A model generated the notes under the pieces. That model saw nothing but the letters and a program-made list of their open reading frames with translations. It was not told where the DNA came from and searched no databases. Positions 5,650 to 21,056 of a stretch of DNA of 27,608 bases are shown here, piece after piece. Both the position numbers and the translations under genes were made by a program. Numbering within the stretch: position 1 is the stretch's first letter; the number at the start of each line of letters is the position of its first letter. The DNA is taken from the IMG/VR virus record IMGVR_UViG_2711768038_000004, one strand, 5' to 3'. The DNA comes from a virus (lineage: Duplodnaviria > Heunggongvirae > Uroviricota > Caudoviricetes).

Positions 5650-6075
5650 ATGGAAGGTTTATCTATGGATCAGGTAGTCATTTTTAAACAAATATTTGAT
5701 AAAGTTCGAAACGATTTAAACTATCAATGGTTTTATTCTGAGCTAAAACGTCACAATGTCTCACATTACATTTACTATTTAGCCACAGAGAATGTTCATA
5801 TTGTATTAAAAAATGATAATACAGTGTTATTAAAGGGCCTAAAAAACATTGTGTCTGTCAAATTTTCAAAGGATAGGCATCTTATAGAAACGACCTCTAA
5901 TAAGCTGAAATCCAGAGAGATCACATTTCAGGAATACAGAAGAAACCTTGCTAAAGCAGGAGTTTTTCGGTGGGTTACAAATATCCACGAACAAAAAAGA
6001 TATTACTATACCTTTGATAATTCATTACTATTTACTGAAAGCATCCAGAAAACTACACAGATCTTACCACGCTAA
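5650..6075 (+). CDS. ydfO: Qin prophage protein YdfO (DUF1398-like); start may be the internal Met at 5665
   Basis: 141-aa ORF; recognised YdfO-like sequence. Confidence 0.7.
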
Positions 6076-6226
6076 ACCATAACGTCCGGCTTCTCTCACT
6101 CCTGAGCCGGACTGCATTGGTTTAATAAAAACCATCAACAATTGTGATTTAGATATTCGGAACCATTCAAATATAACAAAACCCCGTAAAAACGAGGTTT
6201 ATGGATAAATTTTATTATTGAATACA

Positions 6227-6403
6227 TCAGATTAAATTAATCTTGACATCATAGCTTTCAAGACCCGTCATTTTTTCCCGTGCGGTAAACTGAATACTGG
6301 TAACTTCTTTCCCGGTCTTTTTCTTAAGTTCAATAATTTTTTTTGTTATATATTCAGAAATATCTGCTTCTGCTTTTGTTTTTAAGTTTTCAATATTCAT
6401 CAT
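6227..6403 (-). CDS. gnsB: GnsB, 57 aa (multicopy suppressor of secG/fabA phenotypes; GnsA paralogue)
   Basis: Translated by hand from the minus strand: MMNIENLKTKAEADISEYITKKIIELKKKTGKEVTSIQFTAREKMTGLESYDVKINLI. Below the ORF-track cutoff. Confidence 0.75.
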   Translation of the reverse strand: MMNIENLKTKAEADISEYITKKIIELKKKTGKEVTSIQFTAREKMTGLESYDVKINLI

Positions 6404-6571
6404 TTCCTCTTTTAGTCTGTTATGACTTTCCAGTTACACAGTAAGTCGATTATATGGTGCAAACGTGTAAAAGATAAGATGAAACATCGCAATAATCAAC
6501 ATACGATAGTCTAAATTTTACACAAACAGACAAAGAGAATTTTCCTGAATTATCAATGCAATAGCATCAAA

Positions 6572-6727
6572 TCAACTCAAGAGCCTTATTGCTGCTTCCA
6601 GAATTTCTTCTGAAGTAACATGTCGATCCGCGGCTACATAAATGACTTTATGATCTCCGGTCAGAGATGGAAACCCTGCGGCCATTACAGTAAGGTGTGT
6701 TTTTTCGCCATTTGGATATTCACGCAT
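6572..6727 (-). CDS. ynfN: YnfN, 51 aa (short form); the longer in-frame ORF up to 6844 is probably not translated
   Basis: MREYPNGEKTHLTV... with GGAG upstream; a strong hairpin at 6853-6866 sits 9 nt from the long-form start. Confidence 0.5.
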   Translation of the reverse strand: MREYPNGEKTHLTVMAAGFPSLTGDHKVIYVAADRHVTSEEILEAAIRLLS

Positions 6728-7648: not shown

Positions 7649-8672
<1,024 letters not shown>

Positions 8673-8676
<4 letters not shown>

Positions 8677-8984
8677 AGATATTTATGATGAGGACGCTCG
8701 TGCTTATTGGCAGGATTTTCAATCTTAAAGGAGTACTGATGCTGCAGATAAGACTCAACTTTTTCTGACAATTTTTCTGCTACTTCCAGGAAGACTTGCC
8801 GGACGCTCCTTCTGGCTGCTGCCTCATAAAACTCCAGCGCAGCTCCTTCAACACGGTCCATGGCGACATCCAGGTCAAAAATTTCACCGTCAAAGCGTTC
8901 TTTGTCCTGTAAGGCTACAGTTACCGTAACTTTATTCTCAAAATTACGGACTCCTTTCACAACCAGTTCATAGTCTTGAGTCAT
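8673..8984 (-). CDS. ydfR: Qin prophage protein YdfR, 103 aa, sitting between holin and endolysin
   Basis: Recognised sequence; stop overlaps the rrrQ start (ATGA). Confidence 0.7.
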
Positions 8985-8988
8985 TGGA

Positions 8989-9204
8989 TTACTCTCCTCT
9001 CGCAGCCTTACGCCTGTCTTCTTTAATCTTGAAATAAAGATTTGTCAGATACGTCAGCAGGCCAAAAACCAGGCTACCCAGCACACCGATTGCAGCCCAC
9101 TGTGACGGAGTTACTTTATCGAGTAACTGCAATGCCCAGAAACCAGCATTACCCGCCGATGTGCCATAGGCAACACCTGTTGTTAACTTATCCATTGATT
9201 TCAT
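8989..9204 (-). CDS. essQ: Pinholin S21-like holin/antiholin, 71 aa
   Basis: MKSMDK dual-start motif and two TM helices ([25 protein letters not shown]); the ORF-track entry (to 9279) over-extends the N-terminus. Confidence 0.8.
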
Positions 9205-9423
9205 ATCCTCACCCCGATGTACACGGATGGTGCAATATGTTTGAAAAGATCGGAGTCTACGGGGTAGTTTTGACAGCACACGTTGTTCTCAACGGCGCTA
9301 AAAAAACATACACATTAAAAATGTGGGTAATTATTTTGAAAGAAAGTCATATATAAAATAATAATACGAGAAATGTTTTCATATTTAGTGTACTGTATAC
9401 GGCCATTTATACAGGAAAAGCCT

Positions 9424-9594
9424 ATGTCAGAACGTAAAAACTCAAAATCACGCCGTAATTATCTCGTTAAATGTTCCTGCCCAAACTGCACCCAAGAGTC
9501 AGAACACAGTTTTTCAAGAGTACAAAAAGGTGCCCTTTTGATCTGCCCTCATTGCAACAAAGTATTCCAGACAAATCTTAAAGCTGTAGCCTGA
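9424..9594 (+). CDS. ynfU: Small zinc-ribbon protein YnfU, 56 aa
   Basis: MSERKNSKSRRNYLVKCSCPNCTQ...CPHCNK, i.e. CxCxxC...CxxC; AGGAAAAG RBS upstream. Confidence 0.65.
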   Translation: MSERKNSKSRRNYLVKCSCPNCTQESEHSFSRVQKGALLICPHCNKVFQTNLKAVA

Positions 9595-9649
9595 TTGATT
9601 TTATTAGTAACAAGTATTTTTTATATTTTAATAATATATTTAAAGCAGA

Positions 9650-9674
9650 TAATAAAAAACCCGCCTGAGCGGGT
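9650..9674. terminator. Rho-independent terminator (ACCCGC-ctga-GCGGGT), strongest on the minus strand (cspB 3' end)
   Basis: Hairpin followed by a T-run on the minus strand. Confidence 0.5.
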
Positions 9675-9957
9675 TTGAGATTGTGGTGCTTTTTGTGGGA
9701 GTCATCCACTTACGCACTTTGTTTTGCCATGCCAGCAGTTAGCTTCTGCTGTAAAACTATTCATGCAGCAAACCTGCACTTCACCACAATGGTTAGCATA
9801 CTTTTCCTGATTAAGATTTTGCCAAATATGCTAGCCATTGTTTCATGTATTGGACCTCCTTACTTTTTATTAAAGAGATCCAATATTCACTACTCTGTCC
9901 GTATCTCTACTCAGGCATCAGCCTTCTTCGTTATCGTATACAGACGAGCGATGAATT

Positions 9958-10173
9958 TTAATCAGTAATGATGACATTTGCTGCTGCAGGACCTTTAGCA
10001 CCACTCTCTATAGAGAAGGTAACCTTTTGACCTTCAAATAAGGTTCGATAATTATCATTCTGAATCGCAGAAAAATGCACAAACACATCTTTACTACCAT
10101 CAACAGGAGAAATAAAGCCGAAACCTTTATCAGCGTTAAACCATTTTACTAAACCAGTCATTTTATTTGACAT
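9958..10173 (-). CDS. cspB: Cold shock protein CspB, 71 aa
   Basis: [23 protein letters not shown]... Confidence 0.9.
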
Positions 10174-10473
10174 TCTACATTCCTTAACTTGAGCCTTTCG
10201 GCATAAATGGTTTGCATAACAGAAACGACTTCGTACTTAATTGGAGAGACTCAAAGAAGGAATAAGTGAATAACACCTGAAATGAGAACTGCTTTAGTAA
10301 ACTACTTCGTATATCGTCTGTTCTTCAAACCGACGCAATCATTAACGCATAGTTGAACATATGAAGCAATGTTTATTTTAGACATCCAGCCATCTTCAAC
10401 CCCATCAAAAAACTATAGCTTTCTTCAGGAACGTGTGTATAGTGCGCCAAGTTATCAGTATTAAGGAATTTTT

Positions 10474-10686
10474 TTGTCCCGTAAAATGACAGGAATTGTC
10501 AAAACCTTTGACGGCAAAAGCGGCAAGGGTCTTATCACCCCATCCGATGGTCGTATCGATGTCCAGCTTCATGTTTCAGCGCTCAATCTCCGCGATGCAG
10601 AAGAAATTACCACCGGATTACGCGTGGAATTTTGCCGGATAAATGGTCTGCGTGGCCCTTCAGCTGCCAATGTTTACCTTTCATGA
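10474..10686 (+). CDS. cspF: Cold shock protein family member CspF, 70 aa
   Basis: [23 protein letters not shown]... Confidence 0.9.
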
Positions 10687-10978
10687 GCTATATTAAAGCT
10701 TTAATTTCAGGCCCCATCGGATCACACATGGAGAGTTTTTATGAATAACCCCGTCTGTCTTGATGACTGGTTGATTGGCTTTAAAAGCTTATGCTGTACT
10801 TTGGCCGTAATAGCTCTGCTAATAATATAATAAGCAGACTCATTGTGTTTAGGGACATTGTACTGGAAGAAAACATTTTAAACATCAGGCAAATAACCAA
10901 GTCACCAGCTAAATAATAAGTTAACAGACATGAGTCCCGGGATGAGATTCAACATTACCATTGCCCCATTTAAAGCAC

Positions 10979-11010
10979 AAAACCCGCTCATCAGCGGGTT
11001 TTCTACTTTT
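10979..11010. terminator. Bidirectional rho-independent terminator (ACCCGCT-catc-AGCGGGT); candidate tR' for the late promoter and terminator of cspF
   Basis: Perfect 7-bp stem with T-runs on both strands. Confidence 0.6.
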
Positions 11011-11047
11011 TCTTAACGTCGGGTATACAAAGCCCATCGTTGAAAAA

Positions 11048-11076
11048 ATTTTATCCATATTTTTTGAAAAATGCAA
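11048..11076 (-). promoter_or_regulatory. Candidate late promoter pR' (TTGCAT-N17-TAAAAT) directly downstream of quuQ
   Basis: Sigma-70-like hexamers with 17-bp spacer read on the minus strand; position corresponds to pR' in lambdoid phages. Confidence 0.45.
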
Positions 11077-11107
11077 ACATCATGTCGCCATCTTCAGCAA
11101 AAATCAT

Positions 11108-11860
11108 TTATCTCGTCACCTTCCTCAATTGCGCTTCCGCGTATGCTTCTTCCTGCCAGCACTTTGTTACCAGTTTACCAATGACGTCCGCATACCCCTT
11201 ATACCACTGATAATCGGTCAGGTCTGGTACCAGCTTCTGGACATGACGTCGTGCCAGCGTGGTCGGTAAACGACTAAACCGGTTTCCATTACAACGCCCA
11301 CAAATCTTATATACCGGTACGCCATGAAACCGGGTTCTTTTTTCATCCAGAACAATCCCTTTACCCTTACACCCTCTGCACGCTGTGCTGGCTTCGCCCT
11401 TACCATGGCAATGCTGACATAGTTCCTTCACCCATTCTTCCTTGATTACAGATTCCCCGCGTCTGTAGTGTTTCACCACTTCGCGCAATACATTATAAAA
11501 TCCCGTACCTGAACAATGCTCACAGCGAGCCTTACTTGCCGCAGACCTGGAGTAATCAGCAAAGGCAAAACTCACGAGGTAAGGAATAATCTGTAACCGG
11601 ATTTCTTCACTCAATTTGTTCAATGTCGGGTTATCCAGTGCCATCGCGTAATTTAGCAGGCCTTCAATCGCAAACTGAGGGTCCTGAACACCAACTTTTG
11701 CCAGAAATAAGGCCAACCCAAGTGGTGCTTTCGACTGCACCATCCCCTGCGCTGCCATTACATCCGTAATTGTTAAACAACCGGTGCCTGTCGCTGGAGC
11801 GTCATCGCTCAATTTTGGAGATTTTGGGGAGTAATATTTTGGTAAGGCTTCAAGGTTCAT
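11108..11860 (-). CDS. quuQ: Late-gene antiterminator Q homologue, 250 aa
   Basis: Cys-rich zinc-binding motifs (CEHCSGTG, CQHCHGKGE, CRGCKGKG, CGRCNG); start at MNLEALPKYY with GGAG RBS; the ORF-track entry extends to 11890. Confidence 0.8.
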   Translation of the reverse strand: MNLEALPKYYSPKSPKLSDDAPATGTGCLTITDVMAAQGMVQSKAPLGLALFLAKVGVQDPQFAIEGLLNYAMALDNPTLNKLSEEIRLQIIPYLVSFAFADYSRSAASKARCEHCSGTGFYNVLREVVKHYRRGESVIKEEWVKELCQHCHGKGEASTACRGCKGKGIVLDEKRTRFHGVPVYKICGRCNGNRFSRLPTTLARRHVQKLVPDLTDYQWYKGYADVIGKLVTKCWQEEAYAEAQLRKVTR

Positions 11861-11873
11861 GCTCGTTCTCCAC

Positions 11874-12962
11874 TTACGCCAGTACGCCAATTGCCAGCGC
11901 GCGATCGATAAAACGAAATATCAGCTCCAGTTGGGAGCCATACTTATCTTCAAATGCCACTGTATCCGTATGCAGCTCGTTGTGATGCTTTCTGCACAAA
12001 GGCAACACAAAGAGATCATGTGCTTTTGTTCCCATTCCGCCCTGCCCGTGACCAATCAGATGATGCGGATCGTCGGCTGGCATACCGCAGCAAGCACACG
12101 GCTGTGTCTTAACCCAACGTGTGTATTTCTCCTTAACCCAGCGGCGACGTTTAGGCAGCTTCATGAAAGATTCCGGAGACTCTGGATCAACGGTGATGCT
12201 TACCACCGTCTTTTCCTGTGGTGATTTTTGTTGCTGGTGGGCGTAAGGCAACGGTGCAAGATTTTTTGTGCGTTGTTTCAATATGCTGGTGGCGGTCTGC
12301 TCTCCCGGTACGATGTCGCTTTCGCGGTACACCGAGCAGATTTTTTCCGCTGGTAATCCCAGCGAACGACGCGATACAGCCTCAGGTAGTGCATCCACCA
12401 CCTGATTGCAGACCGCCCACCAGGATAATTCAGCCAAAGATAATTCCCGCTCCTGCGTACCGCTTATTGCGTGACGGATGACGTCAATCACCCATGCTGT
12501 CAGATTTTGTTGAGCAAGCAGCTCCAGTGATTCCGATGTCTGGTCACGCAGTTGGTTGTCGCAGTGCCAGCACAACACCATTGCGCCGGTACCATAACGG
12601 TGAATGACTGTTTCAGTGTGATGGTAATCGCCATTAGGCCACTGGCAGGATGTAACATGACGTAATAGCCAGTCGGACAATGCGCCAACGCCGCCAGCAG
12701 CACGAATCACCCGTTCGTTACTAAAAAACGGCAGCAATGTTTTGTCTTCCGCCAGCGGCTGGCGAACGGCAGGAACGACTCCGGATGGCAGATTACGCAT
12801 GCTTTTTGGTTCCGGTTCCACCAGCACTCGAGGATTATGAAATATCTGTATGGATTCACGGCCCGGCTTAAGGACCACCAGCCCAAGCTCAGGCACCAGA
12901 ACAGGTCTAAGTAATACCCGCACGTTACCTCCAGATCCGTTGCTGGAAAGTGCGGGACGCAC
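11874..12962 (-). CDS. ydfU: DUF968-family nin-region protein YdfU (349-362 aa; alternative GTG start at 12923)
   Basis: Recognised YdfU-like sequence with HNH-like Cys/His cluster (CACCGMPADDPHHL); sits just upstream of Q as in lambdoid nin regions. Confidence 0.7.
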   Translation of the reverse strand: MRPALSSNGSGGNVRVLLRPVLVPELGLVVLKPGRESIQIFHNPRVLVEPEPKSMRNLPSGVVPAVRQPLAEDKTLLPFFSNERVIRAAGGVGALSDWLLRHVTSCQWPNGDYHHTETVIHRYGTGAMVLCWHCDNQLRDQTSESLELLAQQNLTAWVIDVIRHAISGTQERELSLAELSWWAVCNQVVDALPEAVSRRSLGLPAEKICSVYRESDIVPGEQTATSILKQRTKNLAPLPYAHQQQKSPQEKTVVSITVDPESPESFMKLPKRRRWVKEKYTRWVKTQPCACCGMPADDPHHLIGHGQGGMGTKAHDLFVLPLCRKHHNELHTDTVAFEDKYGSQLELIFRFIDRALAIGVLA

Positions 12963-13203
12963 GTGGTGGGCGTTCGGAATAAGGCAGCCTGACAGAGATT
13001 ATCCAGTGCCGATAGTCGAGACTGAGAGCTTTCTTAACCTCGAACCCGCGCCTGCGGTAAGAATGAATCAGCCATTCGGCCTGTTCTGCAGTGCATGGAG
13101 GGTGCTGGAACCATTCAGACTTGAATGCGTGAGAATACCGCCCGTGCGTGCAGGCAAGAACGGGCGAATTATCAGAATTGTAATATTTTGCGTTGCGTGC
13201 CAT
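12925..13203 (-). CDS. Hypothetical 92-aa protein; its stop lies 1 nt before the alternative GTG start of ydfU
   Basis: ORF only; not recognised by me. Confidence 0.4.
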   Translation of the reverse strand: MARNAKYYNSDNSPVLACTHGRYSHAFKSEWFQHPPCTAEQAEWLIHSYRRRGFEVKKALSLDYRHWIISVRLPYSERPPRASRTFQQRIWR

Positions 13204-13269
13204 CGGTTTTCTCCGGTGGCACGGTGTTACTCAGCGGGAGTTCAGCCCCGCGCAAGATTGTAGATGAGT

Positions 13270-13521
13270 TTATTCTCCTGAAAAAGCAGAAAAGCCAGCT
13301 TTTATTCCGATCTCTTTCAATGCCTGTAATGAAGTGACAAACTCACCTTCGCGCAAGATAAATCCGTCCGTGACCCGAGCATCCACAAAATTAATTAACG
13401 CAGCCCCATTCTTTCGCAAACACATAATGCGGTAATGACTAACAAGATTTCCATTTTCAACGCACACAGCATAGAGGCCATCTTCACAAAAAATTTTACG
13501 CAGTTCTTCGATGTTCATCAT
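13270..13521 (-). CDS. rem: Qin prophage protein Rem, 83 aa
   Basis: Length and position between ydfU and hokD; assignment from memory of gene order rather than sequence. Confidence 0.5.
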   Translation of the reverse strand: MMNIEELRKIFCEDGLYAVCVENGNLVSHYRIMCLRKNGAALINFVDARVTDGFILREGEFVTSLQALKEIGIKAGFSAFSGE

Positions 13522-13635
13522 CAGAATCCTTCCGGATAATTAGCTCTCCCCTTTAAGGGACCATCCCTCTTATCCCTGCGCGCTACTTAAGTATTTTTGA
13601 TTCTATTCCGGCACCGTCCAGAACTTCAAACGCGT

Positions 13636-13668
13636 TGAAAATAAAAACAAAAACCCGCCGAAGCGGGT
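13636..13668 (-). terminator. Rho-independent terminator of the relB-relE-hokD operon (ACCCGC-cgaa-GCGGGT plus T-run on the minus strand)
   Basis: Hairpin plus T-run, seen directly. Confidence 0.55.
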
Positions 13669-13737
13669 TAAGTGCGGGTGCGTTGAGGATGCCTGCCACA
13701 TCAGAGGTGGCGAGGGATTTCTCCCCCGCCGGGTCTC

Positions 13738-13893
13738 TTACTCCTCAGGTTCGTAAGCTGTGAAGACAGCGACCTCCGTCTGGCCGGTTCGGATTCGTAC
13801 CTCGCAGAGGTCTTTCCTCGTTACCAGTGCCGTCACTATGACGGTTAAACAGATGACGATCAGGGCGATTAACATCGCCTTTTGCTGCTTCAT
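13738..13893 (-). CDS. hokD: Hok-family type I toxin HokD (RelF), 51 aa
   Basis: Translated by hand: MKQQKAMLIALIVICLTVIVTALVTRKDLCEVRIRTGQTEVAVFTAYEPEE. Below the ORF-track cutoff. Confidence 0.85.
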   Translation of the reverse strand: MKQQKAMLIALIVICLTVIVTALVTRKDLCEVRIRTGQTEVAVFTAYEPEE

Positions 13894-13964
13894 AGCCTGC
13901 TTCTCCTGTCAACGCAAAGCAGAAGTGTCACCTTCGGTGCGAAACAGAGATGTCATGCTTTGGT

Positions 13965-14252
13965 TCAGAGAATGCGTTTGACCGCCTCGCTATATACTTC
14001 CGAGCGTTCTCTTTTCCCAACAGAAATCACGAAAACGACAACTTTCTCGTCTATAACCTGGTATACAAGGCGATAGCCTGAAGACCGGAGCTTAATCTTG
14101 TAACAATCAGGCATACCACGGAGCTTGTTTGCTTCAATCCGGGGTGACTCAAGTACTTCAACCAGCTTCTTTTTCAACTGTTCACGTACCGTCGAGCCCA
14201 GCTTTCGCCATTCCTTTAGTGCCCGCTCGTCAAAATCCAGAAAATACGCCAT
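13965..14252 (-). CDS. relE: Type II toxin RelE (ribosome-dependent mRNA interferase), 95 aa
   Basis: MAYFLDFDERALKEWRKLGSTVREQ... Confidence 0.9.
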   Translation of the reverse strand: MAYFLDFDERALKEWRKLGSTVREQLKKKLVEVLESPRIEANKLRGMPDCYKIKLRSSGYRLVYQVIDEKVVVFVISVGKRERSEVYSEAVKRIL

Positions 14253-14491
14253 CAGAGTTCATCCAGCGTCACACGTACTGGCTTAGGATTACGAAGCCGT
14301 TCTTTCACTATCTCCACAAGTTCAGCATCTTCATCACTCAGGAGTGTCTGTTTGAACGGCAAGCGTTCATTGTCAGCGATATACTCGAGCATGAGACGAA
14401 GCGCTTCAGAAGGAGTTACACCCATTTTTTCAAGCGCGGCGTAAGAACGCGCTTTAAGTTCATCGTCAATACGCAGGTTAATGCTACCCAT
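14252..14491 (-). CDS. relB: Antitoxin RelB, 79 aa
   Basis: MGSINLRIDDELKARSYAALEKMGVTPSE...; stop overlaps the relE start. Confidence 0.9.
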   Translation of the reverse strand: MGSINLRIDDELKARSYAALEKMGVTPSEALRLMLEYIADNERLPFKQTLLSDEDAELVEIVKERLRNPKPVRVTLDEL

Positions 14492-14496
14492 GTCTT

Positions 14497-14530
14497 ACAC
14501 CTCTTGTAATTACAAATGTCATTACAAGTA
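14497..14530 (-). promoter_or_regulatory. relBE operator (relO): palindromes TTGTAATTACAA and TTGTAATGACA immediately upstream of relB
   Basis: Inverted repeats seen in sequence at 14504-14528. Confidence 0.6.
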
Positions 14531-14821
14531 TCGCACTACAACATGCTTAGGGCAAGTCACGAAGGAAGTCAGAAAGTAGTCGTAAGAACGGTGATCACTG
14601 TCCGCTTTGTGCCAGGAGCAGCCATTGCTAAGTCCATCCTGTATTGTGCAGGTCAGCTCGTTTTTAAAGAGTCCGGCCATCATCTTACTGGTACAGACAC
14701 CATATACTTTGTGACGGTCAGGCTACATATGCACAACTCAACTTATTCATCTATTTTTTGCTTTAGCATGTCAGTGTTGCTTTCTCGTCGGCGGGTGAGC
14801 GGTGACCTGACCTGTCGATAA
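14516..14821 (+). CDS. ydfV: Hypothetical 101-aa ORF at the position of ydfV; coding status doubtful
   Basis: ORF of the right length and position; no convincing RBS or motifs. Confidence 0.3.
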   Translation: MSLQVSHYNMLRASHEGSQKVVVRTVITVRFVPGAAIAKSILYCAGQLVFKESGHHLTGTDTIYFVTVRLHMHNSTYSSIFCFSMSVLLSRRRVSGDLTCR

Positions 14822-14973
14822 AGGAACGTAACACGTTTTATGCAACACCCGCATGCGGCAGAAAATTATTGCCGAACGTTTACCCCTGTCAACAAGCTTT
14901 ACTTTCTGAGGCGCGCCAGCCCGCGAGGAAAACAATCTGAACATCAAACAATTAATGACACAAGAAATACGAT

Positions 14974-15000
14974 TAAAGATTTTTTTGTGCATGCCGATAG
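14974..15000 (+). promoter_or_regulatory. Sigma-28 (FliA) class 3 promoter of flxA: TAAAGATT-N11-GCCGATAG
   Basis: Close match to the FliA consensus TAAAGTTT-N11-GCCGATAA, 24 bp upstream of the flxA start. Confidence 0.65.
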
Positions 15001-15023
15001 TGCTTTTTTAAAAGGAGAAATCT

Positions 15024-15356
15024 ATGTCTGTCACAATTCAGGGAAATACCTCAACCGTTATTTCAAACAACTCCGCCCCGGAAGGAACATCAGAAATAGC
15101 CAAAATCACAAGACAAATTCAGGTGCTGACTGAAAAGCTTGGGAAAATCTCATCGGAAGAGGGGATGACGACACAGCAGAAAAAAGAAATGGCTGCATTG
15201 GTACAGAAGCAAATTGAAAGCCTCTGGGCTCAACTGGAGCAGTTGTTAAGGCAGCAGGCAGAGAAAAAGAATGAAGACGCGACAGTTCAGCCTGATAAAA
15301 AAGAAGAGAAAAAAGACGATACAAATACCGCTGGCACCATTGATATTTACGTCTAA
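15024..15356 (+). CDS. flxA: FlxA, 110 aa (FliA-regulated protein)
   Basis: MSVTIQGNTSTVISNNSAPEGTSEIAKITRQIQ... Confidence 0.85.
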   Translation: MSVTIQGNTSTVISNNSAPEGTSEIAKITRQIQVLTEKLGKISSEEGMTTQQKKEMAALVQKQIESLWAQLEQLLRQQAEKKNEDATVQPDKKEEKKDDTNTAGTIDIYV

Positions 15357-15792
15357 GTGACAGCCGTATTGTGGCCCTCATCGGGCCACTTTTCGCCATC
15401 AGCCTTTTCTTTAAAGACATATTATCTTTGTATCATTTCTGATAGTTAACATTACAAGATATAAGTAATGGACGCACTCCCAATTAGTCTATTTAAATCG
15501 CCACGAGTTTAACTGACAACCCATGATCAATTATGAATTGCAACTATTTCTGTAGTCACTTTTGTGGGGACAGTCCACAAAACTGCCAACTTCCGCTTCT
15601 TGCTCTTAGCGGACATTAGCATAGGCTATTTACCATAACGCCTCATTACGCGCACCGCCCAGACTGACTCAGCGCGTTTCTGGCATATCCCCGGTAAAAC
15701 AAGTAACAAACCACCCGAAAATGAACACCAGAAACGCGACTTAAGAATCTACCCTATGAATGGATATGCACTCAACCGAATCGATCTTGGTT

Positions 15793-17106
15793 TCAATCTT
15801 TTTTATCGGGATCAGGCTTCTTTTTAGGTAACTTCGGGGGCTTAACTTGCTGATGACTTTGCGTTCGGCGCGTAAGCCAGGGATGGTCAGCTTTAGGTTT
15901 AACATAGTATTTTGAGCGTAAATCAATACGGGCATTATCCACTCGTTCATGGACACTCTTTTCATCATCCAGTGGTATAGGCTCCGGGCCATCAACATAC
16001 TTTTCCCAGCCCAGCGCTTTCCCGTCATACAGAACGTTAATTTCACCGTCAAAGTTCTCGCATACAGTAACAACCGAATGCCTAAGTCGATATCCCCGGC
16101 CCTCACTGCGTACCTGAAACGCACTGCTTTTGTACTGGAAAGTGAGATTTTTAGACAGAACGCGCTTCGCCTGTAGGCTGAAGATATAACCCAGTTCCTC
16201 TTCAGAATGGTGCACATCAAGATGAGCATTATCAGTAGTACGAGGCGACGTAGCGAACCGGTTGTTATAGGCTTCAATAAAGGTCGGCAACCATGCATTT
16301 GCTGTTTCAATATCACTGATATTCTGAAGCCGCATTTCTTTGACCAGCCTGTCCTGTAGTGTCTGATTGGCGCGCTCTACCCGCCCTTTTGCCTGCGGGC
16401 TGTTGGCATGGATTGGCTCGATGCCCAGTGTCTTTATCGCACGAGTGAACTGGGTCAGCTCACCTTCCCGCTCTGGGTTATTTACCCTGAATATACTGTG
16501 TCTATCAGAGTAGAGAGCGAGCGGTACGCCATGATCATTAAGGTAACCCCGGAGGGTTTCCATGTAAGCCCGGGTTGTTTCAGCAGGCACAAAACGCAAC
16601 GCCATCAACGCACTGGTGGCATCATCAATGAAAACGATCAGTGTACATCTGGGGCCTCGATTTTCAAACCAGTCATGAGGTGAGCCATCAATCTGGATCA
16701 GTTCACCGTAAGATGGTCGTCGCATGCGGCGTTGATATATACGGGCAATTTTACGACGGCGTTCACGCCATAACCCCTCTTCTATCATCCACTTTCTGAG
16801 AGTTTCAACGGATAAAGATAAACCGTGTATCTCGCGCAATTTTTCGCACGCAAACGTAGGTCCAAAATCAGCGTAACGGCCTTTGAGGAGTGAAATTACT
16901 GTTGCTCTGAATTCAGTAGAAAAGGAATTATTAGGACGCTTTCCACGTCGGTGGGAAACCAGACCAGAAGGCCCTTCATTTCTATACCGTTGCACCAGAC
17001 GTTTAACCTGCCGAATAGAAATGCCAATGCGTGCCGCAGCTTGTTCCTGAATAATCTGAAGTCGGTGGAGTTCCTTATGACTCATCGTAACAGTCTCTTT
17101 GATCAT
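15793..17106 (-). CDS. DDE transposase / integrase-core (rve) protein with N-terminal HTH, 437 aa, IS481-like architecture; element boundaries not identified
   Basis: N-terminal HTH (IGISIRQVKRLVQRY), DDE core (IQIDGSPHDWF...LIVFIDDATS...NSPQAKGRVERANQTL). A poly-G/A SD (GGGGGA) precedes the ATG at 17106. Confidence 0.65.
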   Translation of the reverse strand: MIKETVTMSHKELHRLQIIQEQAAARIGISIRQVKRLVQRYRNEGPSGLVSHRRGKRPNNSFSTEFRATVISLLKGRYADFGPTFACEKLREIHGLSLSVETLRKWMIEEGLWRERRRKIARIYQRRMRRPSYGELIQIDGSPHDWFENRGPRCTLIVFIDDATSALMALRFVPAETTRAYMETLRGYLNDHGVPLALYSDRHSIFRVNNPEREGELTQFTRAIKTLGIEPIHANSPQAKGRVERANQTLQDRLVKEMRLQNISDIETANAWLPTFIEAYNNRFATSPRTTDNAHLDVHHSEEELGYIFSLQAKRVLSKNLTFQYKSSAFQVRSEGRGYRLRHSVVTVCENFDGEINVLYDGKALGWEKYVDGPEPIPLDDEKSVHERVDNARIDLRSKYYVKPKADHPWLTRRTQSHQQVKPPKLPKKKPDPDKKD

Positions 17107-17440
17107 GAAAAATCCCCCAGAGAATTGTCTGGGGACATTTTAGAATGGTTCAAAGGGGACATTACAGCTTGGTGTTAACAATAGCCTGCTTCTCCGTGCC
17201 TTTCGGCACGTAAGAGGCTAACCTACATGTGTCTAGCATGAAATTGGCCTCAGATTAATGTTAAGCGTCTTGCAGGACGCGTAATGTTAACTGGGGCTTT
17301 TCTCTATCTGCCGTTGGTGTCCATGCCCGAGGCAGATAGCCTCAAGCACCCGCAGTCATTCTACTTAACTAAGATTTCCCCGCAAACCGTTTTTGTCCAG
17401 CACAGTAAATATCCAACTAAACCAATGGAGTTCGCTGTAT

Positions 17441-17620
17441 TTACCGCCAGTATTCAATGCACATGACCGCCATGAACACCCCTAAAAAAAGGGCATTTAT
17501 ATATCCAAATATTAATATCAAAACATCAACTTTTTCCATATACCTTGCTGTGAAGATGATGGGCATACATGATGCGAACAACCAGAACGCAACAAACAAA
17601 AACTGCAATGCGTTTTTCAT
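17441..17620 (-). CDS. Small membrane protein, 59 aa, two predicted TM helices
   Basis: MKNALQFLFVAFWLFASCMPIIFTARYMEKVDVLILIFGYINALFLGVFMAVMCIEYWR; perfect AGGAGG 4 nt upstream of the ATG at 17620. Confidence 0.5.
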   Translation of the reverse strand: MKNALQFLFVAFWLFASCMPIIFTARYMEKVDVLILIFGYINALFLGVFMAVMCIEYWR

Positions 17621-17874
17621 TATTCCTCCTACAATCAATGTGCAATTACATTTAAACACACCTCAATTTGGCCGGACATATAAATATCTAAACCAGAAAA
17701 AATCACTTACATAGCGTTACAAACTCTTTAGTCTAAAGGTTCATCGTAAAACATTCCCCATACTTATCAGTCCGTTCCGCGCCAGGTAGCTCATTGCCTT
17801 ATCTGGCAACCTGTAATCAGGTTTCCGCTTTTTCAGTTGGCTGGTCGTTTAACCGACATAGTTAATCCATTAAT

Positions 17875-18162
17875 CTAGTTGCCGGATGTTGGTGGATTTT
17901 CGCGTTTTAGTTGTTCATAAAAGTGCACAGCTTTAACCAGTTCTTCTGATGTAACTGGGACTGGTGAGGCAGTGAATAAGGCCTGAATTTGATAGTTCGG
18001 CCTGTCGTTACAATCCTCTTTTTTCGGTACATATTTCCAGTCACCAGACCACTACTTCCCCTGAAAGTCCGTAACGCCTTTTTTCACGTAGCGATATCGC
18101 CATGCCACTGGTTTTGCTTGCCCCGCCGTTTCATGCCCTTCCTGATAATTAATCTCGCTCAT
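17875..18162 (-). pseudogene. Hypothetical gene interrupted by an in-frame TAG (18052-18054): 36 codons, amber, 58 codons
   Basis: The frame stays open and protein-like across the TAG (MSEINYQEGHETAGQAKPVAWRYRYVKKGVTDFQGK*WSGDWKYVPKKEDCNDRPNYQIQALF...). Confidence 0.45.
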
Positions 18163-18350
18163 TCATCGCCCCACTCATCACAATATGCTTCGACCGGAGT
18201 TTTTCCCGCTTCATAGTCATCACGCTAGGATTCGACATCAGCAGCACTTCCACCGCGTAACTCACCATAGTCCATTAATAGTTCATCCCGCTCTTCAAAA
18301 CTGATGTTATATTTAGCTGAACAAAAATCAGCCACTTTGTTCTTCCTCAT
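18159..18350 (-). pseudogene. Hypothetical small gene interrupted by an in-frame TAG (18225-18227); its TGA stop overlaps the ATG of the downstream gene (ATGA)
   Basis: MRKNKVADFCSAKYNISFEERDELLMDYGELRGGSAADVES*RDDYEAGKTPVEAYCDEWGDE; the coupling signal is preserved. Confidence 0.35.
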
Positions 18351-18399
18351 CGTCTTTTATTTCGTGGTATGAGTAATTGCAGTAGTTAAAGAAAATTTC

Positions 18400-18510
18400 T
18401 TATGCTCCGTCATGAATTTCCTCAGGTGTTGCGTCATCGTCCACTTCGAATACATCCTCAAAATCTCCACCAGCTATTCCCGTTTCAATAATAATTTTGA
18501 ACTTTCGCAT
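18400..18510 (-). CDS. Hypothetical acidic 36-aa ORF (MRKFKIIIETGIAGGDFEDVFEVDDDATPEEIHDGA)
   Basis: Small ORF preceded by a GC hairpin; weak RBS. Confidence 0.2.
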   Translation of the reverse strand: MRKFKIIIETGIAGGDFEDVFEVDDDATPEEIHDGA

Positions 18511-18682
18511 TTCACTACCGCCCTTTCGGGCGGCCTCCTGATGTTCTGAGGGTGCAGAAATCCATCCGGTTAAGGATTAAATTTTATTTACAGAACTGAA
18601 TTTAATTATTCAGATATACGTATCTGTAGCCTTACGAATCTACTCACTGGATGCCTCTTTCATAAAAATAATCCAGTGGGTT

Positions 18683-19129
18683 TTATCGTTTTTTCCCTGT
18701 TCGTTGACAGATAACAGGTTTTCTGTCTGTCAGTGCCAGAATCTGGCTTACCGGTATTTGCGTTTCATTCCATTAAAAAATCAGAACGCCGTGCGGCCTC
18801 AACACCCGAAAGGCTTCTTTAAATCTCTGTCGCGAATCATCACGCCAGGCATCTTTATTCAGCCGTCCATATTTCTTTCCCATCCAGGCGTTATCACCAA
18901 CACTCTCAAGATGCGGAGGGTCTAATACAACCATCGAAAAAGATGCGTCTGCAAATGATAATGCACGAAAATCTGCGATAATGTCAGGGCTGATAATCAA
19001 GCGTCTCCCATTGCGTAATGTGTATCCTTCTTTTCTGATATCGCTGAATATCGCCCGTTCGTCAGACTTATCGAACCAGAACATGCGGCTGCCACAGCAC
19101 ATATCAAGAATGGTTGCCGGTGCACTCAC
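18683..19129 (-). pseudogene. Phage-type DNA N6-adenine/N4-cytosine methyltransferase interrupted by an in-frame TAA (18773-18775)
   Basis: SAM-binding-like motif (DMCCGSRMFWF) and DPPH motif (DPPY-type) in the 118-aa part; the frame continues ...GVLIF*WNETQIPVSQILALTDRKPVICQRTGKKR. Confidence 0.55.
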
Positions 19130-19548
19130 TGCGCCACGTCCTGAAAATTACCCTGATAGAAAGCCAGTATGCGCTGCATAACTTCGCTCTTCCGGCACTC
19201 GCGACAGATTATGTTTAGGCGACTGTCGTAGCGACGTATTTCTCCGTCAGGTGATGACCAGATAAGGTCCGGATCAACCACAGCAGGTTTCTTCACCTTT
19301 GCCCTCGAGAGTTTTTTGCGGGCGTTTTGCCAGTCCTTACGCGCCTGTTCAGAGGGGAATAACCCGTAGCCGGAGTTGTATACATCGCCACTGGCTACCA
19401 GCTCTCTGGCAAGAACGCTCATCAGATATCTAGTCGCACCTGTTTTAGCTTCCAGTTGCCGTAACGTCTCACGGCCGCTCTGGCGCACGAGTTCCACCAC
19501 CTGCCATTTAATTTTTTCCCGCTCTTCTTGTGTAAAAACTTTTGCCAC
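19126..19548 (-). CDS. Hypothetical 140-aa protein in the replication region (possible wHTH, C-terminal Cys pair)
   Basis: ORF with ATGA overlap onto the methyltransferase gene; not recognised. Confidence 0.5.
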   Translation of the reverse strand: MAKVFTQEEREKIKWQVVELVRQSGRETLRQLEAKTGATRYLMSVLARELVASGDVYNSGYGLFPSEQARKDWQNARKKLSRAKVKKPAVVDPDLIWSSPDGEIRRYDSRLNIICRECRKSEVMQRILAFYQGNFQDVAQ

Positions 19549-19588
19549 AAGTCCCCCTTAAAATTACCTCATGACCTGAAATCAACAC

Positions 19589-20608
19589 TTATCCTCTGAA
19601 ACCAGGCGGAATTTCTGTATCCGGTTCAGAAATATGATTAACACAACGCTGTACAGGTGAACGTCCCAGGCGGATGACCAGTTCGTCCCATTTTTCGCGG
19701 AGCTTTGACGGGCTCATGATGTTTTTTACCCAGAATGGATCTCGCTGAACCCGACCAAACATTTCGCAAATTTGTCTGTGGCTTCTGCCATCCAGCATCC
19801 GCATTGTGCGCACGTCATTGGCCCAGGCAGTCCAGTTAGGCTCTTTTGGTCGCATGATCTCGCCATCATCACTGGCTGCCTGTTCGTAGAGACCCACGAT
19901 CCGCCCCCAGATCCACTGCGCACACGCCAAATCCTCCCTGCTACCCCACTGGCGTTTTTTCGCACTAAACACAACCGCGTCGGAGTTCCGGGTTAAAAAA
20001 TCCTGTTCAGTCGTCTGCGGGTCCGGTTGCGAAGCTTCCGGACGAAAAGTGTTTTTATTCTCTGTAGTAATCTCTGTTGTATTCTCTGTAAGATCATCAG
20101 GCCATTTTGACCCGATGACATTGGGTCGTTTTGAACCAATGGAGCGTTTCATTTTGACCTCTTCCATCGTGTCATTTTGACCTGATGGAGCGGCGCATTT
20201 TGAACCGATGGATTCGCTCAATTTGCCACCATCTAAAAGCTCGCTCCCATAGTTGATCGTGTAGAAATTGGTCATATCGCGCTTTGATTTATTGAGCTTT
20301 TCACAACGCAAAAGCCCCAGCGTTTTCAGACTTGCAAACGCGCGCTTTAACGTTGACTCTGACCAGAATGGGAACTGTTCCAGCCATTGTTCCGTTGTGT
20401 TATAAATCCAGCGAACACCATCACATTCCATGCCGGAGTTGGTATCTCTCAACCAGTAGTGCAGTTGTTGCAAAACAATGGCTTCGTTTAAGCCAATTTT
20501 CATTGCCAGCTGCGTGTTTATAACCAGTGGGCGTTCAGCAAAAAGAAGGCTCATAATTCCATCCAGCTTTTTGTTGGTATTGCTGTCGATACGCAAGTTT
20601 GAAAGCAA
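19589..20608 (-). CDS. Replication initiator (lambda O-like): N-terminal DNA-binding domain, repeat-encoding linker, C-terminal domain; likely start at Met19 (20554)
   Basis: Position after the Cro-like and YdaT-like genes; protein repeats (SIGSK x3, TENTTEITTEN) coincide with DNA iterons inside the gene. Confidence 0.65.
   Translation of the reverse strand: MLSNLRIDSNTNKKLDGIMSLLFAERPLVINTQLAMKIGLNEAIVLQQLHYWLRDTNSGMECDGVRWIYNTTEQWLEQFPFWSESTLKRAFASLKTLGLLRCEKLNKSKRDMTNFYTINYGSELLDGGKLSESIGSKCAAPSGQNDTMEEVKMKRSIGSKRPNVIGSKWPDDLTENTTEITTENKNTFRPEASQPDPQTTEQDFLTRNSDAVVFSAKKRQWGSREDLACAQWIWGRIVGLYEQAASDDGEIMRPKEPNWTAWANDVRTMRMLDGRSHRQICEMFGRVQRDPFWVKNIMSPSKLREKWDELVIRLGRSPVQRCVNHISEPDTEIPPGFRG
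20059..20211. repeat. Candidate replication origin: five ~23-bp iterons (CATTTTGA(C/A)C-N-GATGG) at 20103-20211 plus three 12-bp tandem repeats (ATTCTCTGTAGT-like) at 20059-20094
   Basis: Direct repeats with about 23-bp periodicity, read directly; they lie in the interdomain linker of the initiator gene, as in lambda O. Confidence 0.65.
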
Positions 20609-21056
20609 TTGCTTTTTCTATAAGTTCGTCAGTTTCACGATCCACTACGGCAGGATCAGCAAAAAGCAGTCCGGACTCCACCACATCGCCATATTCTTTG
20701 TTTAACCCGGCGATCATGCACGTGATGCTTTTTCCGTCAGTAATTTCACGATACAACCTGAAATCATTAATCCGGATAGCCTCCATAATTGCAGGCACTA
20801 GCGCCGTGAACTTTTCACGCTTATCCCTGGTGTCGATAGCCTTCCAGCGTTCAAATATCTTCACTCGATTAACGCCAAGCGCTCGCTGATCAATCGCGCC
20901 ACCTTCATATGTGACACGCTGAACATCGATGTTCGGGCGCTCTTTCAAAGCCCAGAATGCTTCAGTGATTAATATCGTCGCCTGCTCCTGTGTCATTCCT
21001 GGTCGACATATCCAGGCATCCAGAGCCTCACGAGCCTGTTCAGGAGTGATTTTCAT
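20535..21056 (-). CDS. YdaT-like protein (CII-position regulator of YdaS/YdaT-type switches), 173 aa
   Basis: Resembles Rac YdaT as I recall it (...ERWKAIDTRDKREKFTALVPAIMEAI...); located directly after the Cro-like gene. Confidence 0.55.
   Translation of the reverse strand: MKITPEQAREALDAWICRPGMTQEQATILITEAFWALKERPNIDVQRVTYEGGAIDQRALGVNRVKIFERWKAIDTRDKREKFTALVPAIMEAIRINDFRLYREITDGKSITCMIAGLNKEYGDVVESGLLFADPAVVDRETDELIEKAIAFKLAYRQQYQQKAGWNYEPSFC

What the first reader, a model, noticed from the sequence alone, without database searches (positions are those of the whole stretch)
15400..17440. DDE transposase-like gene without recognisable IS ends, flanked by GGGGACATT-type direct repeats and palindromes
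The 437-aa HTH+rve protein looks like an IS481-type transposase, but I found no terminal inverted repeats or target duplication within 300 bp of either end. The flanks carry repeated G(G/C)GGACA(T/G)T motifs in direct orientation (15567, 15611, 17132, 17153), an RBS-sequestering hairpin (17114-17136) and further palindromes (17195-17210, 17303-17340). It may be an old domesticated insertion or a prophage-encoded recombinase rather than an active IS. The K-12 Qin, as I recall, has only a short fragment here (intK).
Basis: partly seen in the sequence, partly recalled or inferred. Interest (0 to 1): 0.5.

Follow-up and report, generated by a model that had tools for sequence, protein, structure and literature searches.

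The report
relBE-carrying IS1202-family transposon in hokD
The "transposase without ends" is the engine of a 3.3-kb transposon whose left end lies 1.9 kb further out than expected, because the element also carries the classic relBE toxin-antitoxin genes, flxA and a plasmid-type Xer resolution site, and it landed precisely in front of the hokD toxin gene of the Qin prophage.

Summary
The 437-aa ORF (15793-17106, minus strand) is real. It is an ISNCY/IS1202-family (ISEsa1-type) DDE transposase, not IS481. The ends exist but were looked for in the wrong place. The mobile unit is 13907-17180 (3,274 bp). It has 28-bp imperfect inverted repeats (20/28, TGT...ACA) and a 15-bp target duplication, ATAGCCTGCTTCTCC. 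A Qin-like prophage without the element shows the intact single-copy target, the hokD ribosome-binding site and start codon.

The element reads: left repeat, relE, relB, cargo (ydfV, flxA), cer-like XerC/XerD site, transposase, right repeat. The same two end modules bracket different cargo (nickel/chromate, arsenic, metabolic genes; 2.6-12.8 kb). They occur in at least 16 further insertions in plasmids and chromosomes of many Enterobacterales, each with a 13-16 bp duplication. About half sit at the identical position in hok loci. A 62%-identical 1,449-bp IS in Hahella (10 copies) gives 15-17 bp duplications.

The right-hand palindromes belong to the sok/hok leader. K-12 intK/ydfW is the 3' stump of this transposase.

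This copy has a 9-aa in-frame deletion and is probably immobile. Xer-mediated cointegrate resolution is inferred, not shown.

The parts
13738..13893 (-). hokD coding sequence. This is the target gene, outside the element. Its SD and the first two bases of its ATG lie in the left copy of the duplication.
   Evidence: Translation gives the 51-aa HokD. The same protein accession, WP_000813254.1, is annotated in the empty-site prophage and in K-12.
13892..13906 (.). Left copy of the 15-bp target-site duplication, ATAGCCTGCTTCTCC
   Evidence: The empty site L002 has this sequence once, between the hokD ATG and the hok leader. The window has it on both sides of the 3,274-bp segment.
13907..13934 (+). 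Left terminal inverted repeat (IRL), TGTCAACGCAAAGCAGAAGTGTCACCTT. A second ATGTC-type repeat lies about 13949-13958.
   Evidence: It matches the reverse complement of the right end at 20 of 28 positions, in register with the duplication. The pattern TGTYAACRCMAAGC occurs only at the two ends of the element in 27.6 kb. The terminal 18 nt are conserved in all relatives.
13965..14252 (-). relE toxin gene. It belongs to the conserved 713-bp IRL-proximal module (13907-14619).
   Evidence: Pfam ParE_toxin, 51 bits. RefSeq annotates relE. Present in all 14 relBE-type elements examined.
14252..14491 (-). relB antitoxin gene
   Evidence: Pfam RelB, 112 bits. tblastn finds it in all relBE-type elements.
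14597..14620 (-). Remnant of the conserved hairpin at the boundary between cargo and the TA module. In relatives it reads GTCCGCTT-CTGGCACA-AAGCGGAC. Here only the AAGCGGACAGT arm and the loop are intact.
   Evidence: It is conserved even in elements that carry a different TA system (L027, L041).
14620..15587 (+). Variable cargo of this variant: the 3' part of the ydfV ORF (14516-14821) and flxA (15024-15356)
   Evidence: Homology with the other cargo variants stops at these two points. FlxA matches Pfam at 54 bits, and ydfV has no Pfam match.
15588..15617 (-). Hairpin at the boundary between the transposase module and cargo. In relatives it reads AATGTCCGCT-AAGAGCGAGA-AGCGGACATT. The second arm is degenerate here.
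15628..15776 (-). cer-type Xer site. The core is GGTGCGCGTAA-TGAGGCG-TTATGGTAAAT at 15628-15656, followed by about 120 bp of accessory-like sequence that includes the 11-bp inverted repeat 15673-15683 / 15728-15738.
   Evidence: It is the only match in the window, with 0 expected. One copy sits at the same place and in the same orientation in 15 of 15 complete elements. It is 75-82% identical to a region of hundreds of small ColE1/Rop-type plasmids. The ColE1 cer core sequence is taken from the table in PMC2410131.
15793..17106 (-). Transposase gene, 437 aa. This allele has an in-frame 27-bp deletion that removes 9 aa (QESINRHIT) just before the first HTH.
   Evidence: NCBIfam ISNCY_2, 456 bits. 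Alignment with 446-aa relatives. The AF2 model matches IstA, TnsB and MuA.
17114..17136 (-). Hairpin pairing the inner transposase-site repeat (CCCCAGA) with the transposase SD (UCUGGGGG)
   Evidence: MFE fold -20.5 kcal/mol, z = -2.0
17131..17180 (-). Right terminal inverted repeat (IRR; outer 28 bp 17153-17180, TGTTAACACCAAGCTGTAATGTCCCCTT on the minus strand), with two AATGTCCCC repeats at 17155-17163 and 17131-17139
   Evidence: The same two-repeat layout is found at both ends of the 10-copy Hahella IS.
17181..17195 (.). Right copy of the 15-bp target-site duplication
17180..17351 (-). sok antisense RNA and hok mRNA leader, cut off from hokD by the insertion. This is context, not part of the element.
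   Evidence: Rfam RF01794, 104 bits, full length. It is contiguous with hokD in the empty-site prophage.

Best explanation
Shown. The ORF is the transposase of a 3,274-bp unit transposon of the IS1202 family (ISEsa1 type) occupying window 13907-17180. The element is bounded by 28-bp imperfect inverted repeats (5'-TGT...ACA-3'), and each end carries two ATGTCC-type subterminal repeats. It inserted into the translation-initiation region of hokD in a Qin-like prophage and duplicated 15 bp of target. This separated hokD from its sok/mok leader and placed it behind relBE, which explains the K-12 relB-relE-hokD arrangement.

The element has two conserved end modules. The first is IRR, transposase, cer-like Xer site and hairpin (about 1.6 kb). 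The second is hairpin, relB-relE and IRL (0.7 kb). A replaceable cargo lies between them, here ydfV and flxA.

Inferred. The transposase has the MuA/TnsB/IstA fold and no partner nuclease is encoded. It therefore probably nicks 3' ends and joins them to target DNA cut with a 15-16 bp stagger, preferring a CA just outside the stagger on the transposase side. The resulting cointegrates would be resolved by host XerCD acting with accessory proteins at the internal cer-like site. relBE would make loss of the element costly. The SD-sequestering hairpin would keep read-through transcripts from being translated.

This particular copy lacks 9 aa next to the first HTH and is probably no longer autonomous. 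K-12 has lost everything to the right of 15977.
For: Empty site versus filled site: L002 has ...CATAGCCTGCTTCTCCTTGCC... once. The window has the 15-mer on both sides of 13907-17180.

Ends: the repeats match at 20 of 28 positions and their pattern occurs only at the two ends of the element in the window.

Independent insertions of the same end modules, each with its own duplication:
- Salmonella IncI plasmid, 15 bp
- Enterobacter IncF plasmid, 14-15 bp
- K. michiganensis 12,843-bp form, 16 bp
- C. freundii 4,155-bp form, 16 bp
- 16 genome loci of 2.6-9.1 kb with 13-16 bp

The whole 3,274 bp occurs at 99.8% identity on 16 plasmids and at 100% in phage PhiR42_1.

Module structure is shown. A TA system sits at the IRL in every element, either relBE or TacA/GNAT. 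The cer-like site is present in 15 of 15 complete elements and is homologous to small-plasmid sites.

The Hahella relative is a 1,449-bp IS with 10 copies, duplications of 15-17 bp and two AATGTCCCC repeats per end.

Family assignment rests and on Harmer et al. 2023 (PMC10132070).
Against: No transposition was observed; everything is comparative. ISfinder, as quoted by Harmer et al. 2023, defines ISEsa1 as 1,609 bp with 15/22 repeats and no duplication. I could not obtain that sequence to see where its left end lies, so a separately mobile 1.6-kb form is not excluded. Only one Xer site per element is seen, and no cointegrate or resolution product was found, so the resolution role is inference. 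A 15-16 bp stagger is unusual for MuA/TnsB-type enzymes, which give 5 bp. The 9-aa deletion means that this copy's activity is doubtful.
Confidence: 0.85

Rival explanations
1. A simple 1.6-kb ISEsa1, as delimited in ISfinder (no duplication), inserted beside a pre-existing relBE-ydfV-flxA block. On this view the repeat at 13907 and the 15-bp direct repeat are unrelated to it.
For: Harmer et al. 2023 list ISEsa1 as 1,609 bp with 15/22 repeats and no duplication. Homology between cargo variants ends about 1.6 kb from the right end.
Against: The duplication flanks the whole 3,274 bp, and the empty site lacks all of it. The same outer IRL and TA module accompany the transposase module in every complete locus, with site-specific duplications. 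No credible inner repeat exists at the 1.6-kb boundary: the best is 13/22 at inconsistent positions, against 16/22 for the outer repeat.
Confidence: 0.06
2. One-ended or surrogate-end mobilisation, as with ISEcp1. A 1.6-kb IS repeatedly used chance repeat-like sequences further out, picking up adjacent DNA each time.
For: Cargo differs between copies.
Against: The outer end is not ad hoc. Its terminal 18 nt are identical in all elements, including those only about 72% identical in the transposase gene. It always comes with a TA operon and the same boundary hairpin.
Confidence: 0.05
3. A domesticated transposase or prophage-encoded recombinase of Qin with no mobile unit.
For: This allele carries a 9-aa deletion and is fixed at one chromosomal site in hundreds of E. 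coli genomes.
Against: Near-identical elements with the undeleted gene sit on conjugative plasmids of several genera and at many different sites. Qin-like prophages exist without it. The DDE residues and both ends are intact.
Confidence: 0.03

Closest known systems
IS1202 family (formerly the IS1202 group of ISNCY), in particular ISEsa1; Harmer, Pong & Hall 2023, PMC10132070
   Same: The transposase is about 440 aa with two HTH domains, an RNase-H DDE domain and a beta-barrel, and is TnsB-like. The terminal repeats are imperfect, 22-29 bp, and run TGT...ACA. There is an extra subterminal transposase-site repeat. RefSeq names the undeleted allele an 'ISEsa1 family transposase'.
   Different: ISEsa1 is listed as 1,609 bp with no detectable duplication. 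Here the mobile unit is 2.6-12.8 kb, makes 13-17 bp duplications, and always carries a TA operon at IRL and a cer-like site after the transposase gene. The family's known transporter IS (ISKpn21, ISKpn65, ISRel10) carry only one extra ORF of unknown function. The ISAjo2 subgroup targets pdif sites, whereas this one carries a Xer site and often targets hok loci.
Tn3-family transposons with TA modules (Lima-Mendez et al. 2020, PMC7157771)
   Same: A type II TA operon is built into the transposition module of a cargo-carrying transposon that also has a dedicated resolution site. The presumed role is stabilisation during or after transposition.
   Different: The transposase is unrelated (Tn3 family enzymes are about 1,000 aa), with 38-bp repeats and 5-bp duplications. 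Those transposons encode their own resolvase (TnpR/TnpI/TnpS-T), whereas here only a host-type Xer site is present.
ColE1 cer and related plasmid multimer-resolution sites
   Same: An 11-bp XerC arm, a 7-8 bp spacer and the exact cer XerD arm TTATGGTAAAT. About 110-150 bp of upstream sequence is homologous to small ColE1/Rop plasmids.
   Different: The site is located inside a transposon, next to the transposase gene, rather than on a small plasmid. Function is untested.
Tn7 / Mu / IS21 transposases (TnsB, MuA, IstA)
   Same: Best structural matches over the whole multi-domain protein (Foldseek E-values from 2e-14 to 4e-8). Multiple transposase-site repeats at each end.
   Different: No TnsA/TnsC, MuB or IstB partner is encoded. 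The duplication is 15-16 bp rather than 5 bp (Mu, Tn7) or 4-8 bp (IS21, from memory).
K-12 relBEF (relB-relE-hokD) locus and the 'major rearrangement' said to inactivate hokD (Pedersen & Gerdes 1999, recalled from memory, not re-read)
   Same: Same genes in the same order. hokD lacks its sok/mok leader.
   Different: The rearrangement is identified here as a single transposon insertion with defined ends and duplication. K-12 has since deleted the right-hand 1.2 kb of the element together with the sok leader.

Membership tests
IS1202 family (ISNCY) | Transposase matches the curated ISNCY family model above its cutoff | tested here: met
   NF033594 scores 456.4 bits against a cutoff of 250, over residues 14-368
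IS1202 family (ISNCY) | TnsB-like domain order: two N-terminal HTH domains, an RNase-H DDE domain and a beta-barrel | tested here: met
   Pfam HTH_28/29/32 plus a weak rve_3 match. The AF2 model has helical N-terminal domains, an alpha/beta core and a beta-rich domain at 311-371. The best Foldseek matches are IstA, TnsB and MuA. The D140, D201 and E244 columns are invariant in 25 homologues.
IS1202 family (ISNCY) | Imperfect terminal repeats of about 22-29 bp, starting 5'-TGT and ending ACA-3' | tested here: met
   TGTCAACGC... at 13907 and ...GTGTTAACA ending at 17180, matching at 20 of 28
IS1202 family (ISNCY) | An additional internal transposase-site repeat near each end | tested here: met
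   AATGTCCCC occurs twice at IRR. AGTGTCACC and GATGTCATG occur at IRL. The same spacing is seen in the Hahella IS. This is sequence evidence only; binding was not tested.
IS1202 family (ISNCY) | Target duplication falling in one of the family's classes (3-5 bp, >15 bp, or none) | tested here: met
   15 bp here. Across 23 sites the lengths are 16 bp (11 sites), 15 (8), 14 (2), 13 (1) and 17 (1). This fits the long class.
ISEsa1 as defined in ISfinder | Length 1,609 bp, 15/22 repeats, 439-aa transposase, no duplication | tested here: not met
   The mobile unit is 3,274 bp here and 2.6-12.8 kb elsewhere, with duplications. Only the transposase module is about 1.6 kb. The ISfinder sequence itself was not available for alignment.
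   NF033577 scores 125.7 bits against a cutoff of 224
cer-type Xer recombination site | XerC arm, 6-8 bp spacer and XerD arm matching the consensus | tested here: met
   GGTGCGCGTAA-TGAGGCG-TTATGGTAAAT at 15628-15656 on the minus strand, with 0 expected by chance. The ColE1 cer core is quoted in PMC2410131.
cer-type Xer recombination site | About 180 bp of accessory sequence on the XerC side (ArgR/PepA dependence) | tested here: inconclusive
   About 110-150 bp upstream is 75-82% identical to small ColE1/Rop plasmids. A possible ARG box, TGCATATCCATTCATA, lies about 100 bp upstream, judged only against my memory of the consensus.
cer-type Xer recombination site | XerCD-dependent recombination between directly repeated sites | not testable with these tools
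   Needs genetics or an in vitro assay.
Type II TA system relBE | RelB antitoxin gene followed by an overlapping RelE toxin gene | tested here: met
   Pfam RelB 112 bits and ParE_toxin 51 bits. The ORFs share base 14252.
hok/sok type I TA locus (the target) | sok/hok leader RNA and a Hok ORF | tested here: met
   Rfam sok at 104 bits and the 51-aa HokD. The two are contiguous only in the empty site.

The most novel reading that the evidence does not exclude
ISEsa1-type elements are not 1.6-kb insertion sequences without duplications. They form a family of cargo-carrying transposons that combine four things: (i) a MuA/TnsB-like transposase making 15-16 bp staggered insertions, (ii) a borrowed plasmid cer site, so that the host XerCD machinery resolves their replicative cointegrates, (iii) an addiction module fixed at the left end, and (iv) a strong preference for one exact position in hok/sok loci. 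On this reading the textbook K-12 relBE operon is a transposon component, and hokD was inactivated by that transposon.
Probability: 0.4. Interest if true: 0.75.

Novelty: new variant of a known kind. Interest (0 to 1): 0.6.

Why it matters
It explains a long-standing oddity of the K-12 map. hokD sits behind relBE without its sok/mok leader, and a stump called intK/ydfW follows flxA.

It re-delimits a catalogued IS. The 'no duplication' subgroup of the IS1202 family would in fact make 13-17 bp duplications once the true left end is used.

It gives a concrete route by which relBE, nickel/chromate, arsenic and metabolic genes move between plasmids, phages and chromosomes of Enterobacterales.

If the cer-like site does resolve cointegrates, this would be a transposon that outsources resolution to the host Xer system. 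That is directly testable.

The hok hot spot also means that this element swaps one plasmid-maintenance toxin system for another.

Tried and rejected
(1) The 12-bp perfect inverted repeat 15444-15455 / 17281-17292 (I19) was considered as the IS ends. It was rejected because the right arm lies in the hok leader and is present in the empty site L002, and because no duplication flanks the pair.

(2) An inner left repeat at the 1.6-kb boundary was sought. The best ungapped matches were 13/22 or lower, at inconsistent positions in five variants.

(3) A supposed 2.3-kb 'minimal' element (H59) turned out to be two elements head-to-tail, arranged IRR, 15 bp, IRL.

(4) A sequence search of the PDB gave only a marginal integrase hit. 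A fold search was needed.

(5) A second Xer site at the other cargo boundary, which would indicate cassette-like Xer exchange, was not found. There is one site per element.

(6) I tried to find the Cronobacter ISEsa1 type copy. There was none among the 79 genome loci or the top 120 protein clusters.

(7) Literature searches returned nothing describing this element. Queries covered ISEsa1, IS1202 plus relE/hok, hokD plus relBE plus transposon, intK, cointegrate plus XerC plus cer, and 'IS1202 family' from 2023 onward. The library lacks most subscription journals.

(8) The two boundary hairpins share the arm GTCCGC/GCGGAC, which resembles the ATGTCC repeat of the ends. I could not decide whether they are terminators, extra transposase sites or recombination scars.
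Full report
**What is at the coordinates**

An intact 437-aa ORF runs from 17106 to 15793 on the minus strand. Pfam finds HTH_28/29/32 and a weak integrase-core match.

The curated NCBIfam model for ISNCY transposases (NF033594) scores 456 bits against a cutoff of 250. The IS481 model reaches only 126 against 224. RefSeq calls the gene 'ISNCY family transposase' or, for the undeleted allele, 'IS1202-like element ISEsa1 family transposase'.

The surroundings are the Qin prophage:
- relE at 13965-14252 (minus strand)
- relB at 14252-14491 (minus strand)
- ydfV at 14516-14821 (plus strand)
- flxA at 15024-15356 (plus strand)
- hokD at 13738-13893 (minus strand)

K-12-type genomes match only up to 15977, so ydfW/intK is the last 49 codons of this ORF.

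**Finding the ends**

The stretch to the right of the gene, 17181-17600, is the DNA that lies directly upstream of hokD in Qin-like prophages lacking relBE, ydfV, flxA and the transposase. Rfam places a full-length sok/hok-leader match at 17180-17351 on the minus strand (104 bits).

In such a prophage (L002) the sequence reads ...GCTGCTTCATAGCCTGCTTCTCCTTGCCTTTCGGCAC.... In the window the 15-mer ATAGCCTGCTTCTCC occurs twice, at 13892-13906 and at 17181-17195. Everything between the two copies (13907-17180, 3,274 bp) is absent from the empty site.

The two termini of the inserted segment are inverted repeats:
- left: TGTCAACGCAAAGCAGAAGTGTCACCTT
- right (reverse complement): TGTTAACACCAAGCTGTAATGTCCCCTT

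They match at 20 of 28 positions and run TGT...ACA. A degenerate pattern of the first 14 nt occurs only at these two places in 27.6 kb.

The left end was missed because it lies 1.86 kb beyond the stop codon.

**Is the 3.3-kb unit really mobile?**

The complete 3,274 bp recurs at 99.8% identity on 16 plasmids of Salmonella, Enterobacter and E. coli, and at 100% in phage PhiR42_1. I read the junctions of the insertions below.

| Insertion | Element size | Duplication |
|---|---|---|
| Salmonella IncI plasmid | 3.3 kb | ATCATAGCCCCTCCA |
| Enterobacter IncF plasmid | 3.3 kb | (A)TGGCCTTCTTCTCC |
| C. freundii plasmid | 4,155 bp | CATGGCCTTCTTCTCC |
| K. michiganensis plasmid | 12,843 bp | TATCGTGCCCCGTGAT |

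A scan of one genome per species returned 79 loci. In 16 enterobacterial loci both ends lay within reach. The elements were 2,575-9,083 bp long. Fifteen had a site-specific duplication of 13-16 bp, and one had a nested 10-bp case.

A relative from Hahella, 62% identical in protein, is a plain 1,449-bp IS. It is present in 10 near-identical copies with duplications of 15-17 bp and two AATGTCCCC repeats at each end.

Over 23 distinct sites the duplication is 16 bp (11 sites), 15 (8), 14 (2), 13 (1) or 17 (1).

**Anatomy**

All enterobacterial elements share two modules.
- Module A is about 1.6 kb (window 15588-17180). It contains the right repeat with its two AATGTCCCC repeats, the transposase gene, a cer-like site and a hairpin.
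- Module B is 713 bp (13907-14619). It contains a hairpin, relB, relE and the left repeat.

Between the modules lies variable cargo:
- ydfV and flxA in this window
- the chrBA and ncrABCY metal-resistance genes
- ORFs that by my reading are a cation-diffusion transporter, an ars operon and tartrate/glycerate genes (these cargo identities were not tested with profile searches)

Two Scandinavium elements are about 72% identical in the transposase gene. They carry TacA (92 bits) plus a GNAT toxin at the left end instead of relBE. A TA operon at the left end is therefore an architectural constant rather than a chance passenger.

**The cer-like site**

A distant DNA search of module A hit hundreds of small ColE1/Rop-type plasmids over the 110-150 bp just downstream of the transposase stop codon.

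That stretch ends in GGTGCGCGTAA-TGAGGCG-TTATGGTAAAT (15628-15656, minus strand). It is the only such site in the window, with none expected by chance.

ColE1 cer is GGTGCGTACAA-TTAAGGGA-TTATGGTAAAT (table in PMC2410131). The Scandinavium elements have exactly the cer arms. A small Shigella plasmid has the same 7-nt-spacer version as the window.

One site is present in 15 of 15 complete elements, always at the same position and in the same orientation.

G(G/C)GGACA(T/G)T occurs five times in the window, all inside the element, against 0.7 expected.
- 17131 and 17155 are the two subterminal repeats of the right end.
- 15609 and 14597 are arms of the two hairpins that bound the cargo. In relatives these read AATGTCCGCT-N10-AGCGGACATT and GTCCGCTT-CTGGCACA-AAGCGGAC, and they are conserved even where the flanks differ.
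- 15566 lies in a cargo hairpin.

I cannot say what the boundary hairpins do.

The hairpin at 17114-17136 pairs the inner repeat with the transposase SD (z = -2.0). This arrangement is common in IS elements.

**Target choice**

At least five different hok paralogues have been hit at the same position: Qin hokD, an IncI hok, and three other hok/mok loci on plasmids or contigs. In each case the left repeat abuts the hok SD and ATG, and the orientation is always the same. Eight other insertions are at unrelated sites.

Across all 23 sites the base 17 nt from the transposase-side end is A in 17 cases, and the base before it is C in 12. In many sites the sequence reads GGCAA or GGCAC.

Head-to-tail pairs separated by exactly one duplication length occur in Enterobacter and in Hahella.

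**Mechanism**

The following are shown:
- ends, duplication and modularity
- distribution across hosts and replicons
- a transposase whose AF2 model (pLDDT 71) best matches IstA, TnsB and MuA over its full length, in line with Harmer et al. 2023

The rest is inferred. No second nuclease is encoded, so 3'-end nicking and transfer with a 15-16 bp stagger would give cointegrates. The conserved cer-like site is the obvious candidate for resolving them through host XerCD. The TA operon would penalise loss of the element.

relBE transcription runs out through the left repeat into hokD, which keeps its SD in the left duplication copy but has lost sok control.

**State of this copy**

Compared with every relative, including the Hahella IS, the window's transposase lacks the 9 residues QESINRHIT. 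This is a 27-bp deletion between ATTAYTCAGGA repeats, just before the first HTH.

Of 5,426 complete E. coli genomes, 1,310 carry at least part of the element and 760 carry 80% or more of it. K-12 strains keep only nucleotides 1-2071.

**Comparison and novelty**

Harmer et al. list ISEsa1 as 1,609 bp with 15/22 repeats and no duplication, and place it in a separate 'no TSD' subgroup. My data suggest that this length corresponds to module A only. I could not align the ISfinder entry, so this remains an inference.

I found no paper in the searchable library that describes the larger transposon, its TA and cer modules, its hok preference, or the origin of the K-12 relBE-hokD arrangement. The library is incomplete.

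I rate it a new variant of a known kind.

Noticed in passing
window 15793-17106; L001 16494-17807: In genomes 100% identical to the window, RefSeq annotates the intact 437-aa ORF as two features. One is 'protein YdfW' (the last 49 codons). The other is a pseudogene 'ISNCY family transposase, missing C-terminus'. This looks like an annotation artefact inherited from the K-12 name.
   Followed up: partly
window 14516-14821: The ydfV ORF starts inside the conserved relBE module and runs across the module/cargo boundary at about 14619. It has no Pfam match. It may not be a real gene, or it may exist only in this cargo variant.
   Followed up: partly
L089 3058-3124 (NZ_CP085771); L030 (Hahella): Two elements lie head-to-tail, with the right repeat of one separated from the left repeat of the next by exactly 15-16 bp, one duplication length. 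This could be repeated use of the same target, or a preference for inserting next to an existing end.
   Followed up: no
L011 about 1620-3100 and L013 about 5140-6620 of the element (tnp orientation): Another IS, with a 414-425-aa ORF and ends TATAGTCATTC.CACCCTGAGA, is inserted exactly in the loop of one or other boundary hairpin. The N-terminus looks IS110-like to me, but I did not test this.
   Followed up: no
L008 (NZ_CP022534) 7918-20760: The 12.8-kb chr/ncr form has a hok-type left flank identical to that of the 3.3-kb form in another Enterobacter plasmid, but an unrelated right flank with no duplication. This suggests cargo swapping in place by recombination between elements, followed by an adjacent rearrangement.
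   Followed up: partly
L029-L035, L039, L040, L054 (Hahella sp. SMD15-11, NZ_CP154858): A 1,449-bp IS1202-family IS is present in at least 10 near-identical copies. It has clean 15-17 bp duplications and two AATGTCCCC repeats per end. It is a good reference for the simple form of this subgroup.
   Followed up: yes
window 13648-13729 (minus strand): There is a weak match to the Rfam isrK Hfq-binding sRNA (25 bits, gathering score 50, E = 0.02) just downstream of hokD. It is probably not significant.
   Followed up: no
window 15752-15767 (minus strand): TGCATATCCATTCATA lies about 100 bp on the XerC side of the core site and resembles an ArgR box at the distance seen in cer. This is judged from memory of the consensus only.
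   Followed up: no
PV340562.1 11493-14766 (phage PhiR42_1 from ECOR13): The complete element, 100% identical, lies within a deposited 48.7-kb phage genome. The transposon can therefore also travel in a Qin-like phage.
   Followed up: no
L001 13376-14589, 19948-21161 and 22494-23707, compared with the window: The otherwise identical strain Z1323CEC0018 has extra IS3-family and IS30 copies around this region, including one downstream of relE where the window has hokD. The Qin region is an IS hot spot.
   Followed up: no
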